A stretch of DNA of 64,000 nt. Source: the human T2T-CHM13v2.0 reference genome, Homo sapiens. The DNA is taken from NCBI RefSeq assembly GCF_009914755.1, contig NC_060928.1; one strand, written 5' to 3'. Position 1 is the stretch's first letter; every line of letters begins with the position of its first letter. Shown piece by piece: positions 10,444 to 16,570 of this stretch. The translations under genes and the position numbers were made by a program. A model generated the notes under the pieces. It was given only the letters and a program-made list of their open reading frames with translations. It searched no databases and was not told the origin of the DNA.

Positions 10444-13374
10444 TAAAATAAATAGATATTTGGAAGTCCTGTTTTGGTCATTTGTGATTACGATAGTAAT
10501 TACAACTTACCCCATATGCTAAGAAAAGCAAAAGGACTATAACATAGGGATTATTACATTCTGTCTGTAAACAGGGAATGTAAAATATAATGAGTATATT
10601 TACTGCAGATCACACACCTAAAGTTGAGGAAGCAGAGAAGCCTTCTGCCACTTTTTATATAGAGTAAGTTTTTCTACTATTAAAATTTATTGTCCTACTA
10701 TATTTAACATAACAAATATTCAATTCCTCTTTCCTATTTCCGCTCCCCAGATCTATACCTTCCAATAAAAATAAGAGAGCCAAGCACTTGTCATGCATAA
10801 TATACAGCATTGTTCTGCACAGAATTATAAAAATCACTAGAGAAAGGCTTTAGATCAGCAGACTCTATTAAAAGTCTAAAGTTAAATGGGTTGGCTGTCT
10901 CCCCCACGTTGCACATATTCTTTCCAGGTAAAGCTCATGCCATTCGTTGTGTCATATGTACAAGTCAAAACTCCATATTCCTGAGCTGGGAAGTACCGCA
11001 TACTACAACATTTAGTGATACTTGAATTACTAGAATAAATGAGTGAATGACTGTGTGAATATTAGTTAGCAAAAGGGCCCTGTACTTCCTTGTCTTTGTT
11101 AGTATTTTTATTAGTAGATGAAACATCAAATTCTGTTGCTTCTAATTTTCTCAATTCACTCTTCATTAGATATGATTTGTAATTGTTTACAAATCATAGT
11201 TTTCCTTCCTTTTTCTTTTTTCTCTGTTAATTTTTCTTTCTCTCACATATTATTTTCATTGATATTGTCTCTTTCCCTTGGCAGCTATTTTTCTTTCTGG
11301 TTTTATTCTTGCATTATTTCTCATATTCTTTCTTGACAAAATTTTAGCCTTTTAGCCTTTTAAAAGCCTCAGCACATAGAGAAATATTTCTGCGGCCCTT
11401 TAACCTTATCCTTTAGCAGAGAGACTAGCTTGCATTTATAGCATAGATAATTGGTGACTACCTCAGGCAAAAGACAAACTTAGCATGTACCCTGCAGGTT
11501 CCTGAAATAGTTCCCTTGGTGTCCATACTTCTTCAGGTTAAACTCAAGTACTGTGTGACTCTTTCTGGAATCTCTTTCTGCTCTGTCAAACCACACTGAC
11601 AGCTGGTTGTGCCCATTTGCTGGGGACTCACGATCTCTAGGGTACTGCTGCCTTTAAGATAGGCTGACCACTATAATCTCCTGATGTAAATCTCTAATAA
11701 TATGTTCACTCCTACTATTTATCAATAATTTGTGCCCAAGAGATGTCAAGCCTGACCCCTTTTACAAAGCCTGTATTATTTAGTTTACATCTTCAAAAGC
11801 ATTGCTGCAAAACATTCCATTAAAAAACTATCATCTCTTTTGCAATGCGTATATGCACAAAGCTTCAAGGTGATTTTTGTGTGTGTTTGTGCATATTAGA
11901 TTTTGTTACCATGTAACTGAGCACATTGGAACATACATGCCTGCCAAAATAAGAAGGAATTTAAAGCAGCTTGCTATTTATTTGAAGAAAGGAAAATTGG
12001 AAAGAACTATATGCTGTCTCCACCCCATTAGTAACTTATAAATTACTATTATCTCTATTTAACCATACAAAGGATAAAATCTAGAGTCATAGAAGGTAAA
12101 CGAAGAATTCAGAAATAATCCTAAATGAGAAATAAAATCGATATATTCAATTTGAAATTCTAGCTTGCTAGTGATACTTCTAATTCTTAAATAGTATAGT
12201 GATTCTTTCTTGCGCACACACATCAACTGATTGTTTAATGATGATAGTTTAGAAACTGGCTAAAATATATTATTATAGAATATTTGAAAATTGATAACAT
12301 TTTTTTATTATAAAACTATAATTTTATTTTAAGAATCACTACGTTTTTATAGTATAAATTGTGAAAAAGTAAAACAAAGTATAGCAACTTTCAAGGAAAG
12401 ATGTTCATATAACCTGTATGTCTTCATAATTCAATGCCACATATCATGGGGTCAAAGCACATTCCAAAGGATAAAACCACACCTTTAAAGTTTTCTATAT
12501 CAAATGCATGAGAAAGAAAATCATTCCTTCTGCCATAAAATTTCAACTTAGTTATTCACAGTATAGCATCTTCACAGAACAACCTGGAAAAGAAATTTTG
12601 GTGAATAATTTATAAGTCAAAAGTAAAGCCAAGGGAGCAATCCAATATATATATATATATATAAATGTTATCATAGAGCACATAGAACTCAGACAACATA
12701 TCAAAGTGTAAAGAAAAGCAAACAAAACAAAACAAAGTTTACATTTACATGAGAAGTAAAGATTGCCTTTAAGAAAATAGGTAGGTCATAAATATACCAA
12801 AATGATGATACTTGGAAGAACTATAATAGGTTTAAATGTTTTGAAAGATATATGTGTAATTAAAAAAAAACTAAACACGTCTATGAACATTTAATTCTTA
12901 ATATTTTCACATAGAACAATTTGTGCTGCTGAAACAGAAAAAAAAATAATAAAGAGAACCAATTTTCTTCTTCAAAATGATAAATCAAAGCCAATAGAAT
13001 TTTTTTTTCTTTTTCATTCCAACATTCTTGAGCCTTCTATGGTTCATACAGTTCAATCACTTATTTACTGTCAACACCCAACCCATAGTTATTTTTGTTT
13101 GTTTCTCATTATGCTTTTATACACAAGGCGTCAATATTAAGATCAGCCTTCATCAGAACAAACATGGATAGTGGTTGCTATACATTTGAGGATTCTGGAC
13201 ATGCTATAGCAATATGTAGACTCAAGTGTTCCATAATCACTTACACAATAAAATGGGGAAAATATATTGACTTAAATTTATCGCTCAAGATACTTACTAG
13301 TATCTTTAATACTAGCTTATAATAGTCTGTAAGATTAGTTAATATAAGAAAACTATTTGTGGTAAAATAGACTT

Positions 13375-13489
13375 TTATTCAGATGCAAATGGATTTTAAT
13401 CCTGGTTGTGCCATTTATAAGTTATGTAATTTTGGAAAGCTATGTGGAATCTCAGTGTTCACATCTAGTAAAGGGACATAAAATGTATA
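13375..13489 (+). mobile_element. MIR, 5' portion (split by the MLT2/ERV-L element)
   Basis: ttaatcctggttgtgccatttataagttatgtaattttggaaag...ctcagtgttcacatctagtaaaggg resembles the MIR core. Confidence 0.65.
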
Positions 13490-13494
13490 CTTGT

Positions 13495-13910
13495 TGTGAT
13501 GGTTAATGTTATGTGTCAACTTGGCACATGGTGTCCATCCAGAGTTTGCTCAAATGCCGGTCTAGATGTCACTGTTAAAATATATTTTAGAGTCGTTAAC
13601 ATTTAAATCAGTAGATTTTAGTGAAGATTAACCCTCATAGTGTGAGTGGGCCTCACACAATCAGTTGAACAAAGCCTGAGATTTTCCAAAATGGAAGGAA
13701 TTCTACCTCCTGACTGCCTTCAGATTCAAAACTACAACACTGACTCCTGCTGAGATTTCCAGCCTGCTCTCCCGCCCCAGAGACTTCAGACTTGCCAGTC
13801 TCCACAGTTGCCTAGGCCAGTTCCTTAAAAATCTCTCTCTGATTGCGTGTGTGTGTGCATTTACATCCATCCATCCTATTGGCTCTGTTTCTCTGGGGAA
13901 CCCTAATACA
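13495..13910 (+). mobile_element. MLT2-family (ERV-L) LTR, left arm
   Basis: Starts tgtgatggttaatgttatgtgtcaacttgg and ends tctgtttctctggggaaccctaataca. Confidence 0.9.
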
Positions 13911-14089
13911 ATTTTACTATCTGATGTTGAAGATGCAAGTAAAAAAATATGCATCAGATGGCATTCTGGTCTTTAATTTGTTACTTTATCTATGAAGACA
14001 GCCCCTGTATACGGAGAATCAACAAAATAAATTTGTCTCCCTCCCAGTCTCACTAGCAAGCACAGCTGCACCACTCACCTGAGAGTCCA

Positions 14090-15283
14090 TCTGCCTATTT
14101 CCTATTGGAACTAAGATGTCTAGTTCAGCAGAGCACAGGGGCATGCAGACAGGAGGCAAAAATTTAGCTATTGGATCACTAGGAGTAATGGAGGCTGATG
14201 CAACTCCCATTTTCACCCCTTGATTCCTGGACCTGTGAATCCTAGCTATATTAGACATTAATTTAGAGCATATATAGCTTCCTGGAGAACCTTGCCCCAG
14301 CCTTACAAGCATTGTCACCTAGCTGGCACTGTAACTGAGTCTTCTAATGGCCCTTCCACCTTTTTTTTAAGCCAGCTGCTTCAGGATGGTAAACAATAAG
14401 ACTAGTCAATTTCAGAAGCATGGCCTCACTGTTGCACTTCATTTCACGTGAAGTGAGTTCTTTGATCAGAAGCAATGTTGTTTGGAATACTATGATATGA
14501 TGACAGATAATGCCCATTCTTCAATACCACAGACGATAGCCTTGGTAGAAGCATTGAGTATAGATAGAGTCGTCAAATCTATACCCAAAGTGTCTATTTC
14601 AGTAAGAACAAAATGTTACCGCTTCTGTGATGGAAACAGTTCAATGTAATCAACAGGCCACCAGGTGCTAGCTGATCAATCCTGGGAATGTTGCCATATT
14701 GGAGGCTCAGTGTTCTTCTCTGCTGCTGGTAGAGTGGGCACTCAGCAGTGGCTGTAGTCAGGTCAACCTTGGTGAACAGAAGTCCACATTGCTGAGCCCA
14801 TGCATAACCTCAATTCCTGCCACCATGACTACTTTGTTCATGACCCCATTAGGTAATAACCAGGGTGTCTAGGGATGGAGGCTGAGTGGCATCAAGAAAT
14901 TGCATCATCCTATCCACTTGAGTATTAAAATCTTCCTCTGCTGAGGTCACTGTTTAGTGAGCATGCTTATGGGGCACAAATATTTTCATGCATTTTGTGT
15001 ATTCAGAGAACTCTAGCCACATACCTATTTCCCAGGCTTCTTTGTCATCATTTTACCAGTCACGTTCCTTTCAAGTCCCAGACCTTACAGGCCACATCCT
15101 ATGAATCATTATATAATTGCATATCTGGCCATTTCTCCTTCCAAGCAAAATGAATAACTAGGCGCACCTCTAAAATTTCTGCCTAATGAGAGAAATTCTC
15201 TTCACCATTGTCTTTCAGTGACTTCCCAGAAAGAGGCTGTTGTGCTGTGACGGTTCACTTTTGAATAGCACCCACATATTGCA
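14090..15283 (-). pseudogene. ERV-L pol remnant: RNase H, integrase and start of the following dUTPase region
   Basis: My - strand translation gives HFAWKEKWPDMQLY (RNase H), WGHEQSSHGGR..YAWAQQ..TAECPLYQQQR (HHCC), TWWPVDYI, IASDQRTHFT and HPEAAGLKKRW (DDE core). Stops and frameshifts are present. Confidence 0.9.
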
Positions 15284-15397
15284 TAGTGTATTTGGTTGAT
15301 TCTTATAATTCAAGTACTCTCTTCACAGATAAACTAACAAAATGAAGATCAATACAGCACATATTTGTTTTGGATCTTCAACCACAGATAATAAAAT

Positions 15398-15475
15398 TGT
15401 ATTAGAGTTCTCCAGAGAAATAGAACCAACAACGGGTGTATGTGTGCATTTACGTACCCACACATGCACACAAAT

Positions 15476-15510
<35 letters not shown>

Positions 15511-15897
15511 AAGGAATTACCAGACTGTGGGAGCTGGAGGGTCTGAAATCCATGAGGCAGATTTGCAGGCTGGAAATTTCAGCAGGATCCAGTGTTCAGT
15601 ATTGAGTTTAAAGGCTGTCGGGAGGCAGAATTCCTTCTTCTTCAGTAAACCTCAGTCTTTCTTCTTAAGGTCTTCAAATGATTGGAAACAGCCCATGTGC
15701 ATTGTGAAGGATCATTTGCTCTATACAAACCCTACTGATTTAAATGACAGTCTTTATTCAAGACTGTCTACTACTGATTTAAATATTAATGACATCTTTT
15801 ACAAAGAAATACTTTCATAGCAATATCTACATTGATGCTTGGTCAAACCACTGGGTATCATTGCCTAGCCAAGCAACACATAAAATTAACAATCACA
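15398..15897 (-). mobile_element. MLT2-family (ERV-L) LTR, right arm, inverted relative to the left arm
   Basis: Reverse complement starts tgtgattgttaattttatgtgttgcttggctaggc and ends tctctggagaactctaataca. Contains (GA)n at about 15481-15507. Confidence 0.9.
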
Positions 15898-15902
15898 CTT
15901 GT

Positions 15903-16000
15903 CTGCTTTTAAAGGTGATCATTAAGCCCAAATTAAATAACAAAGGTTTAGTCAGACACTTAGCACAGTCTCGTACACAGCAGCCTTTTTACTATTGCTG
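15903..16000 (+). mobile_element. MIR, 3' portion
   Basis: aaattaaataacaaagg...gacacttagcacagtctcgtacacag continues the MIR interrupted at 13489. Confidence 0.55.
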
Positions 16001-16570
16001 TATGATACTACCAGTACTAACAACATCACAACTAAAACCACTCCTCATACTACCCCTGTTGCTATTACTGGTACAAATGCAGGCATATTTGCATACTCTC
16101 CTACTTGTTTTCTAAGGTTTACTGAAACATAATTATTTGTTAGCCAAGTAGCTCCCACACCAATCCATTCAAATTCCTTAAATCTTGATCAACTCAGTTG
16201 CATGTTACACTAAACAATCTCCTTTTATCTACCACCTAAGGTGTTGGTATCACTAGTTTTCTCAAAGAATTTGCTTATTACTTTTTGTGTATCATCGAGT
16301 CACATATTCTATGGAAAGAAGCACAGGAGTCTTGGAAGTTAATAATCTTACATTCAAAATTCTAGAGATAGCTACATAAATCTTCAGCAAACTACTTTTT
16401 TTCCAAACCTCCATTTCTGCTTTGTAAATTGCAGACAATATGATCAATATGATCTATGTCCAAATTTTACTGTGTATACTTTTGAAGCTCAAGTTATTAG
16501 CTTACATAGACTCAAATTTGTATTTATTCATGTTTTGACTAGTCTTATACTCCATATTGGAGACAAGCAT

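What the first reader, a model, noticed from the sequence alone, without database searches (positions are those of the whole stretch)
13490..15902. ERV-L integrase flanked by inverted MLT2 LTRs with one 5-bp TSD: a retrovirus-derived element with DNA-transposon architecture
Seen: two MLT2 LTRs face each other (13495-13910 on +, 15398-15897 on -), so both outer ends are the same U3 end (tgtgatggttaat...attaacaatcaca). cttgt flanks both ends exactly (13490-13494 and 15898-15902), and the host MIR appears to continue across the insertion. The interior has only RNase H and the integrase HHCC and DDE regions, with no gag, protease or RT. Established: proviral LTRs are direct repeats, ERV-L integration gives 5-bp TSDs, and integrase acts on CA-3' ends. 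Ginger-type transposons pair an integrase-like DDE enzyme with TIRs. Ricksha also carries ERV-L/MLT2 pieces, but inside its own unrelated TIRs. Inference: the 2.4-kb unit integrated in one integrase-type event using two U3 ends. It is either a one-off fold-back reverse-transcription product or a member of a family that moved as a TIR-plus-integrase element. This copy is dead (stops, frameshifts, and the catalytic E position reads K). I cannot tell whether this architecture is already noted in Dfam or Repbase.
Basis: partly seen in the sequence, partly recalled or inferred. Interest (0 to 1): 0.88.

Follow-up and report, generated by a model that had tools for sequence, protein, structure and literature searches.

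The report
Dead ERV-L with inverted LTRs
An ancient, broken retrovirus insert on human chromosome 4 has its two end-repeats facing each other yet looks like a single clean insertion, most likely a one-off accident of viral DNA synthesis and not a new kind of jumping gene.

Summary
Two MLT2-type LTRs face each other (13495-13910 on +, 15897-15398 on -). Both outer ends are the U3 end, and cttgt flanks both. Related LTR copies carry 5-bp flank repeats (5 of 12 exact, permuted mean 0.19). Neither arm has a flank repeat of its own.

New here:
- Each arm runs 109-143 bp past the LTR into a shared segment X.
- The pol fragment (partial RNase H, integrase, start of dUTPase) lies on the minus strand, in sense with the right LTR.
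- Between pol and the inverted left arm sit 60 bp that match, at 82% and as each other's only match, DNA 157-217 nt upstream of the DDI2 start codon.

Genome searches with all three junctions found no sibling copy, though the search is weak for old short repeats.

Best reading: a one-off, rearranged ERV-L DNA, probably built by strand switching that picked up host sequence, inserted by integrase through two U3 ends. It was defective on arrival. A transposon family with terminal inverted repeats and an integrase is not supported. MIR continuity across the site rests on my eye and recall only.

The parts
13380..13489 (.). Host flank, left. By eye it is the left part of an old MIR copy.
   Evidence: Sequence. 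The MIR identity is from a recalled consensus and no tool confirmed it.
13490..13494 (.). Left copy of the 5-bp target-site duplication, cttgt.
   Evidence: Related LTR copies have 5-bp flank repeats.
13495..13910 (+). Left MLT2-type LTR, 416 bp, with U3 outermost. It starts TGTGATGG and ends CTAATACA.
13911..14036 (+). Segment X, left copy. This is the sequence that follows the U5 end. It is shared with the right arm as far as 14029 and with an isolated chr2 locus (L033) as far as about 14053. Its origin is unresolved: viral leader or carried-along host flank.
14037..14096 (-). A 60-bp piece that is 82% identical to DNA 157-217 nt upstream of the DDI2 start codon. It reads in DDI2 sense on the minus strand, the same sense as pol. 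Its first bases (14037-14043, CTCCCTC) are also present at the end of X in L033, which could be the microhomology at a switch point.
   Evidence: E 2e-6; each is the other's only match. There is no match to HERV-L copies.
14097..14105 (.). Nine bases that could not be assigned to any source.
   Evidence: They lie between the end of the alignment and the HERV-L homology boundary.
14106..15279 (-). ERV-L pol fragment: RNase H without its first ~16 codons, the integrase zinc-finger region, core and C-terminal part, and the first ~16 codons of dUTPase. It has many stops and frameshifts.
   Evidence: Homology to HERV-L copies stops at 14106 in 25 of 29 hits and at 15221-15285 on the other side.
15280..15288 (.). 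Nine bases that could not be assigned, at the X / RNase H junction.
15289..15397 (-). Segment X, right copy, 109 bp. It breaks off earlier than the left copy.
15398..15897 (-). Right MLT2-type LTR, 500 bp, with U3 outermost. It is longer than the left LTR because of a ~43-bp tandem duplication, a (GA)n run and small indels.
   Evidence: (D7).
15898..15902 (.). Right copy of the 5-bp target-site duplication, cttgt.
15903..16010 (.). Host flank, right. By eye it is the continuation of the same MIR copy.
   Evidence: Sequence. The MIR identity is recalled and no tool confirmed it.

Best explanation
This is a single, ancient insertion of a rearranged ERV-L DNA molecule, roughly 100 Myr old on a crude LTR-divergence clock. 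Both ends of the molecule were U3 ends.

Read on the minus strand, the molecule is: LTR, 109 bp of the adjoining segment X, a pol piece (RNase H to the start of dUTPase), 60 bp resembling the region just upstream of the DDI2 coding sequence, then an inverted copy of X and the LTR.

Inferred mechanism:
- During or just after reverse transcription, a growing DNA strand carrying LTR-X left its template at a short CTCCCTC match and copied a stretch of a host (DDI2) transcript.
- It then continued on a plus-sense viral template, from dUTPase back to the U3 start.
- The result was one continuous strand that bridged two genuine U3 termini.
- A variant of the same idea: two viral DNA molecules each gave a U3 end, and the host joined their inner ends with filler.
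- Integrase paired the two U3 ends, each ending in CA-3', and inserted them in one concerted step into a MIR, making the 5-bp duplication cttgt.

The product had no gag, protease, RT, polypurine tract or 3' LTR, so it could not replicate and stayed a single copy.

Shown here: the anatomy, the boundaries, the duplication, the orientation of pol, the DDI2 match and the lack of siblings in these searches. Inferred: that integrase did it, and the order of strand switches.
For: - Inverted LTR+X arms with exact family-typical LTR ends.
- One shared 5-bp duplication. The same LTR family shows exact 5-bp flank repeats in 5 of 12 copies, against a permuted mean of 0.19 and maximum of 2.
- Neither arm has a flank repeat of its own as a solo LTR would. 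The best matches are 3/5 and a 4/5 that lies inside the LTR.
- Both arms carry segment X, which none of the 12 related LTR copies has after its end. Elsewhere in the genome X was found only once. So the arms come from one template.
- Both arms hit the same LTR family, with at least 11 loci in both lists.
- pol is collinear and in sense with the right LTR. It has a sharp homology stop at 14106 in 25 of 29 HERV-L hits.
- The junction holds 60 bp that match DNA upstream of the DDI2 start codon, and each is the other's only match. All 7 CpGs of the DDI2 copy are lost in the window copy, 6 of them as TpG or CpA (my count on the alignment). That is the pattern of a methylated dead copy against a CpG-island parent.
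- CTCCCTC is shared at the X/DDI2 boundary.
- No other locus spans any of the three junctions.
Against: - The arms are only 67% identical over 409 LTR columns. They are no closer to each other than to other copies (61-73%), and they share no excess of rare variants: 6, against 1-8 for an arm paired with any other copy. The LTR sequence alone therefore does not show that they were identical at insertion.
- X has no recognisable primer-binding site and no significant likeness to the HERV-L leader (128, 437 and 142 of 500 shuffles reach the score). Calling the arms '5' LTR plus leader' is therefore unproven.
- The DDI2 match is short (61 columns). I could not check whether it lies inside the transcribed 5' UTR.
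- MIR continuity across the site is not tool-verified.
- No empty orthologous site could be examined.
- That retroviral integrases accept two U3 ends is recalled from in-vitro work. My literature searches found no in-vivo precedent.
Confidence: 0.62

Rival explanations
1. A normal minus-strand ERV-L provirus with direct LTRs was rearranged after integration. Replication template switching or break repair replaced its 3' end (the rest of dUTPase, the polypurine tract and the 3' LTR) with an inverted copy of its own 5' LTR plus X, with templated filler from a DDI2 transcript.
For: - Inverted duplications with microhomology and short templated insertions are known products of replication-based repair (recalled).
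- The junction has a 7-nt shared CTCCCTC and a 60-bp foreign piece.
- The arms are no more alike than unrelated copies.
Against: - The inverted copy would have to end exactly at the first base of U3 and rejoin exactly at the old target duplication. The left end is TGTGATGG directly after cttgt, at the same column where 10 of 12 family copies begin.
- A slip of even a few bases would have left flank or LTR remnants, and none is seen.
Confidence: 0.15
2. The element is a member of a family that moved as DNA: ERV-L LTRs serve as terminal inverted repeats around an integrase gene, as in Ginger or Polinton elements.
For: - The form fits: 416-500-bp inverted ends with TG...CA termini, a DDE-type integrase region inside, and a 5-bp duplication.
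- The genome search is insensitive for old short repeats. It found no second copy of either MIR flank, so weak siblings could be missed.
Against: - Searches with the three junctions scored 40 of 98, 40 of 41 and 3 of 3 first-look candidates. They returned only this locus, its own inverted arm, and partial matches to the LTR end, to pol, to X (L033) or to the DDI2 piece (L061). No hit spanned a junction. LTR copies at 66-69% identity were found by the same tool.
- The coding part begins about 16 codons inside RNase H and ends about 16 codons inside dUTPase, with no start of its own.
- A 60-bp host piece sits at the junction.
- Retroviral integrase is not known to cut a provirus out of a chromosome (recalled).
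Confidence: 0.04
3. Two independent ERV-L insertions in opposite orientation sat next to or inside each other. Deletions later removed everything between the two 5' LTR-X units except a pol piece. The matching cttgt is coincidence.
For: - Nested and neighbouring ERV insertions are common.
- The arms are as different from each other as unrelated copies are.
- There is an unexplained internal deletion between X and RNase H.
Against: - A 5/5 match at two independently fixed boundaries has a chance of about 1 in 1024.
- Neither arm has its own flank repeat.
- Both arms carry the rare segment X.
- By eye the host MIR runs on across the site with exactly one cttgt to spare (recalled consensus, not tool-checked).
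Confidence: 0.06

Closest known systems
Canonical ERV-L / HERV-L provirus with MLT2 LTRs (class III endogenous retrovirus)
   Same: - The LTRs belong to an MLT2-type family with TG...CA ends and 5-bp target duplications.
- pol is 72-73% identical to HERV-L copies and has dUTPase after integrase.
   Different: - The LTRs are inverted instead of direct, so both termini are U3.
- There is no gag, protease, RT, polypurine tract or 3' LTR.
- No primer-binding site is recognisable after the LTR, whereas the HERV-L copy L074 has a TGG-starting stretch 5 nt after its LTR.
- A host-like 60-bp piece lies inside.
Ricksha (composite MuDR-type DNA transposon in Repbase)
   Same: It carries MLT2B and HERV-L sequence between inverted ends (passages of PMC1431705).
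   Different: - Ricksha has its own 79-bp terminal inverted repeats. It holds only a 3' portion of HERV-L with its LTR, and it is a multi-copy family (PMC1431705 passages; listed under MuDR in PMC5753468).
- Here the termini are the LTR U3 ends themselves, the viral part is RNase H to dUTPase, and only one copy was found.
- No Ricksha sequence was on hand for a direct comparison.
Ginger and Polinton/Maverick DNA transposons (integrase-like DDE enzyme plus terminal inverted repeats)
   Same: Inverted ends, a retroviral-type integrase region inside, and a short target duplication.
   Different: - Those are families with their own transposase gene and many copies (recalled).
- This is a single copy with a torn pol fragment.
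Rearranged defective proviruses and retro-copied host sequence joined to retroelement cDNA by template switching
   Same: Internal deletion, inversion and a host-transcript-like insert at a junction with microhomology. One published foamy-like ERV in guppy is said in passing to have 'inverted LTR' (passage of PMC5210030).
   Different: The usual defective proviruses keep direct LTRs (recalled). Here the whole 3' terminus is an inverted 5' LTR, yet the element is flanked by a clean duplication.
DIRS-type retroelements (inverted terminal repeats, tyrosine recombinase)
   Same: A retroelement with inverted long terminal repeats.
   Different: DIRS elements are a separate lineage with a tyrosine recombinase and no target duplication (recalled). 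This element is ERV-L by sequence and has a 5-bp duplication.

Membership tests
ERV-L provirus (MLT2-type LTRs) | LTR homologous to other MLT2-type copies, with TG...CA ends | tested here: met
   Both arms match the same family across the genome at 65-78%. Ends are shared with 10 of 12 copies at the 5' side.
ERV-L provirus (MLT2-type LTRs) | 5-bp target-site duplication | tested here: met
   cttgt on both sides. Five of 12 family copies have exact 5-mers, against a permuted mean of 0.19.
ERV-L provirus (MLT2-type LTRs) | pol of ERV-L type with dUTPase after integrase | tested here: met
   72-73% identity to 39 HERV-L-like loci. Domain map via Pfam on HERV-L open frames. Pfam run directly on 13 window pieces found no retroviral family.
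ERV-L provirus (MLT2-type LTRs) | Two LTRs in direct orientation, one end U3 and the other U5 | tested here: not met
   The LTRs are inverted and both outer ends are U3.
ERV-L provirus (MLT2-type LTRs) | Primer-binding site after the 5' LTR, and gag-pro-RT | tested here: not met
   X shows no significant likeness to the HERV-L leader or primer-binding region. pol homology begins only inside RNase H.
TIR DNA transposon with integrase-like DDE enzyme (Ginger/Polinton-like) | Terminal inverted repeats and a target duplication | tested here: met
   Met in form only: inverted LTR+X arms and cttgt.
TIR DNA transposon with integrase-like DDE enzyme (Ginger/Polinton-like) | Several copies with the same ends and internal junctions at different sites | tested here: not met
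   Junction searches found only this locus. Sensitivity is limited, and no RepeatMasker-wide scan was possible.
TIR DNA transposon with integrase-like DDE enzyme (Ginger/Polinton-like) | A self-contained transposase/integrase gene | tested here: not met
   The fragment starts about 16 codons into RNase H and ends about 16 codons into dUTPase. The longest stop-free minus-strand stretch is 99 codons.
Ricksha | Own 79-bp terminal inverted repeats unrelated to the LTR, enclosing a 3' HERV-L portion plus MLT2B | tested here: not met
   The definition is from passages of PMC1431705. Here the termini are the LTR U3 ends and the viral part is not the 3' end. No Ricksha reference sequence was available for alignment.

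The most novel reading that the evidence does not exclude
The locus is a fossil of an in-vivo integration through two U3 ends of a strand-switched ERV-L DNA that had also copied part of a host (DDI2) transcript. Beyond that, such inverted-LTR, integrase-bearing units may have arisen repeatedly, or even moved more than once. That would make ERV-L a natural source of transposon-like elements with inverted ends and an integrase. Low-copy siblings too decayed for the searches used here would then exist in eutherian genomes.
Probability: 0.05. Interest if true: 0.85.

Novelty: new variant of a known kind. Interest (0 to 1): 0.4.

Why it matters
If the reading is right, this locus is a natural record that a retroviral integrase can join two U3 ends to a chromosome in a living germ line, without a U5 end. 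It would also record reverse-transcription strand switching that produced an inverted-repeat provirus carrying a scrap of host transcript. That is of interest to people who study aberrant proviruses, retroviral capture of host sequence, and the origin of integrase-bearing DNA transposons.

It does not show a new class of mobile element. It is a single dead copy in a gene desert with no sign of function.

Tried and rejected
1. Pfam run directly on 13 minus-strand pieces of the window gave no retroviral family. Domain mapping was done through better-kept HERV-L copies instead.
2. MIR continuity. A script joined the two flanks into a model of the empty site and ran blastn and nhmmer against 279 kb of human DNA. 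It found nothing usable. Genome searches with each flank returned only the flank itself. The point stays untested by tools.
3. Is X the viral leader? None of 12 related LTR copies has X after it. The 27 loci picked by their LTR 3' ends matched only the last ~45 bp of the LTR. X does not resemble the HERV-L leader. L033 used as query finds only itself and the window. Unresolved.
4. Are the arms sister copies? Identity and shared rare variants do not single them out.
5. Autointegration (inversion circle) was considered and rejected on paper. It would put target sequence directly against the U5 end of one LTR, whereas both arms here have X there, and a circle has no ends to integrate.
6. A homologous inversion between LTRs of nested proviruses was rejected on paper, because it leaves a U5 end at the outer edge.
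7. The Ricksha reading was rejected on the published description.
8. My own slip: searches used a reading frame two bases off for the L061 exon and gave nothing. This was corrected.
9. Literature searches for inverted-LTR proviruses or U3-U3 integration in vivo found one passing remark only.
Full report
**What is there**

The window is human chr4 (T2T), in a gene desert. At 13495-13910 lies an MLT2-type LTR on the plus strand. At 15897-15398 lies a second one on the minus strand. A pairwise alignment runs from TGTGAT(G/T)G at the outer ends to CTAATACA at the inner ends. The repeat finder and a self-blastn see the same inverted repeat (67.9% over 392 columns, E 5e-36).

The right LTR is 84 bp longer. 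The difference comes from a ~43-bp tandem duplication, a (GA)n run and small indels. cttgt lies at 13490-13494 and at 15898-15902.

**Are the boundaries and the duplication meaningful?**

Each arm was used to search the whole assembly. Both find the same LTR family at 65-78% identity, and at least 11 loci appear in both lists. I fetched 12 of these copies with short flanks.
- In 10 of the 12, homology begins at the same (T/C)GTG column as in both arms, and the DNA before it is unrelated from copy to copy. The U3 ends at 13495 and 15897 are therefore family-typical ends.
- Five of the 12 copies have an exact 5-mer repeated across the LTR, four of them directly at the LTR end. When the upstream 5-mers were permuted among copies, the mean was 0.19 and the maximum 2. 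This family makes 5-bp target duplications.
- Neither arm has such a repeat around itself (best 3/5, and a 4/5 that lies inside the LTR). They are not two solo LTRs.
- With fixed boundaries, the shared cttgt has a chance of 1 in 1024.

**The arms are longer than the LTRs**

Past the U5 end, both arms continue with a shared segment that I call X. It covers 15397-15289 on the right and 13911 to at least 14029 on the left. None of the 12 related LTR copies has X after its end. A genome search with 13911-14105 gave three candidates in all:
- the locus itself;
- an isolated ~140-bp copy of X on chr2 (L033, 75%);
- a 60-bp match on chr1 (L061).

In L033, likeness to X starts within about 3 nt of the point where the LTR ends in the arms, but no LTR lies beside it. 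L033 used as query finds only itself and the window.

X has no evident primer-binding site. A HERV-L copy (L074) shows a TGG-starting stretch 5 nt after its LTR. X does not resemble that leader: 128, 437 and 142 of 500 shuffles reach the observed score for the left copy, the right copy and L033.

So X is either a fast-evolving leader of this old subfamily or host flank carried along with an LTR. I could not decide. Either way, the two arms share a rare sequence and come from one template.

**The interior**

Window 14106-15261 (to 15279 in one copy) aligns collinearly to 39 HERV-L-like loci at 70-73%. Open frames of two such copies carry Pfam RVT_1, RNase_H, rve and dUTPase. By the alignments, the window fragment:
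- lies on the minus strand;
- begins about 16 codons into RNase H;
- runs through the integrase;
- ends about 16 codons into dUTPase.

The stop at 14106 is sharp (25 of 29 hits). On the other side the hits end at 15221-15285. The fragment is in sense with the right LTR. It is riddled with stops, and the longest open minus-strand stretch is 99 codons. Pfam on 13 such pieces finds no retroviral family.

**A host-like piece at the junction**

Window 14037-14096 is 82% identical (61 columns, E 2e-6 for the genome) to L061. L061 holds a CpG-island promoter and an exon whose 46 codons match the N-terminus of DDI2 (PDB 2n7d, E 6e-26). The match lies 157-217 nt upstream of that ATG. It reads in DDI2 sense on the window's minus strand, the same sense as pol.
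- The reverse search with 301 bp of the DDI2 upstream region finds only the window piece.
- It has no likeness to 30 HERV-L loci.
- All 7 CpGs of the DDI2 copy are lost in the window copy, 6 as TpG or CpA (my count).
- The bases CTCCCTC at 14037-14043 occur at the end of X in L033 and at the start of the DDI2 match. That would suit a switch at a microhomology.
- I could not check whether the matched stretch lies within the transcribed 5' UTR.

**No siblings found**

I searched the assembly with the LTR-X-pol junction on the left (13860-14180), the one on the right (15450-15180), and X plus filler (13911-14105). These returned the locus, its own inverted arm, and partial matches to the LTR end, to pol, to X (L033) or to the DDI2 piece (L061). 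No hit spanned a junction. The searches scored 40 of 98, 40 of 41 and 3 of 3 first-look candidates.

The same tool finds LTR copies at 66-69% identity, so siblings as decayed as the arms should have surfaced. It did, however, fail to find any second copy of either MIR flank, so the negative is not absolute.

**Host site**

By eye, against a recalled MIR consensus, the left flank ends and the right flank resumes at adjoining MIR positions, with exactly one cttgt between them. No tool confirmed this.

**Age**

The arms differ at 32.5% of 409 aligned LTR columns. By my arithmetic this is a Jukes-Cantor distance of about 0.43, or roughly 100 Myr at 2.2e-9 per site per year if the arms were identical at insertion. 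This is a crude figure. The arms are not closer to each other than to other copies (61-73%), which is what a star-like old family gives. It neither helps nor hurts the single-origin reading.

**Explanation**

The simplest account of exact U3 ends on both sides, a single family-typical duplication and no duplication around either arm is one integrase-mediated insertion of a DNA that had two U3 termini.

How such a DNA arose is inference. One route needs a single continuous strand:
- a plus strand that had copied the LTR and about 130-140 nt beyond it left its template at CTCCCTC;
- it copied some 60 nt of a DDI2 transcript;
- it then went on along a plus-sense viral template from dUTPase back to the U3 start.

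That strand bridges two duplex U3 ends, which an intasome could pair. Alternatively, two viral DNAs each gave a U3 end and the cell joined the inner ends with filler.

The X / RNase H deletion may belong to the same event or may have come later. Without gag, protease, RT, polypurine tract and 3' LTR, the insert could not replicate, which fits its single copy.

**Rivals**
- A post-integration inverted duplication would need a breakpoint exactly at the first U3 base next to the old duplication. I put this at 0.15.
- Two insertions plus deletions need a 1-in-1024 coincidence and two LTRs that both carry rare X. I put this at 0.06.
- A mobile TIR-plus-integrase family lacks any second copy and any self-contained gene. 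I put this at 0.04.

**Comparison with what is known**

The element is ERV-L by sequence, but it fails the direct-LTR, primer-binding-site and gag-pro-RT features of a provirus. It is not Ricksha, which has its own 79-bp inverted ends around a 3' HERV-L piece with MLT2B (passages of PMC1431705; listed as MuDR in PMC5753468).

It resembles Ginger or Polinton elements in outline only. One paper mentions in passing a guppy foamy-like ERV that 'has inverted LTR' (passage of PMC5210030). My other searches found nothing on two-U3-end integration in vivo. Those searches cover open-access text only, and the older retrovirology literature is largely outside that library.

**Verdict**

The bold half (a new transposon-like family) is not. 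This is a new variant of a known kind, a rearranged defective provirus. It is of moderate interest as a natural record of integration through two U3 ends with a captured host scrap.

Noticed in passing
L033:1501-1640 (own genome, chr2:203112808-203112947, minus strand): An isolated ~140-bp copy of segment X, 75% identical to the left arm. It starts within about 3 nt of the point where the LTR ends in the arms, but has no LTR beside it. An Alu lies about 120 bp upstream. It could be the host source of X, an empty site of a lost source provirus, or a stray cDNA fragment.
   Followed up: partly
L061:601-661 and 818-955 (own genome, chr1:15062167-15062521): A CpG-island promoter and first coding exon whose 46 codons match DDI2 (PDB 2n7d). 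Its only other match in the genome is the 60-bp piece inside the element.
   Followed up: yes
window 15727-15793 and 15478-15506: The right LTR carries a ~43-bp tandem duplication (CTACTGATTTAAAT occurs twice, 39 bp apart) and an expanded (GA)n run. Both are absent from the left LTR, so they are changes made after insertion.
   Followed up: partly
window 15395-15820 (+): A 141-codon stop-free stretch runs antisense through the right LTR. It has no start context or homology support and is most likely chance.
   Followed up: no
L074 (own genome, chr18:2992384-2995400, minus strand), about 850-880 in sense orientation: In a well-kept HERV-L copy, the LTR ends ...CTAATACA. After 5 nt there follows a TGG-starting stretch of the kind expected for a primer-binding site. 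It is useful as the normal state against which segment X was compared.
   Followed up: partly
window 13370-13494 and 15903-16030: The whole-genome DNA search returned only the query itself for both MIR-like flanks, although MIR is a very abundant repeat (recalled). Negative results from that tool for old, short repeats should be read with care.
   Followed up: yes
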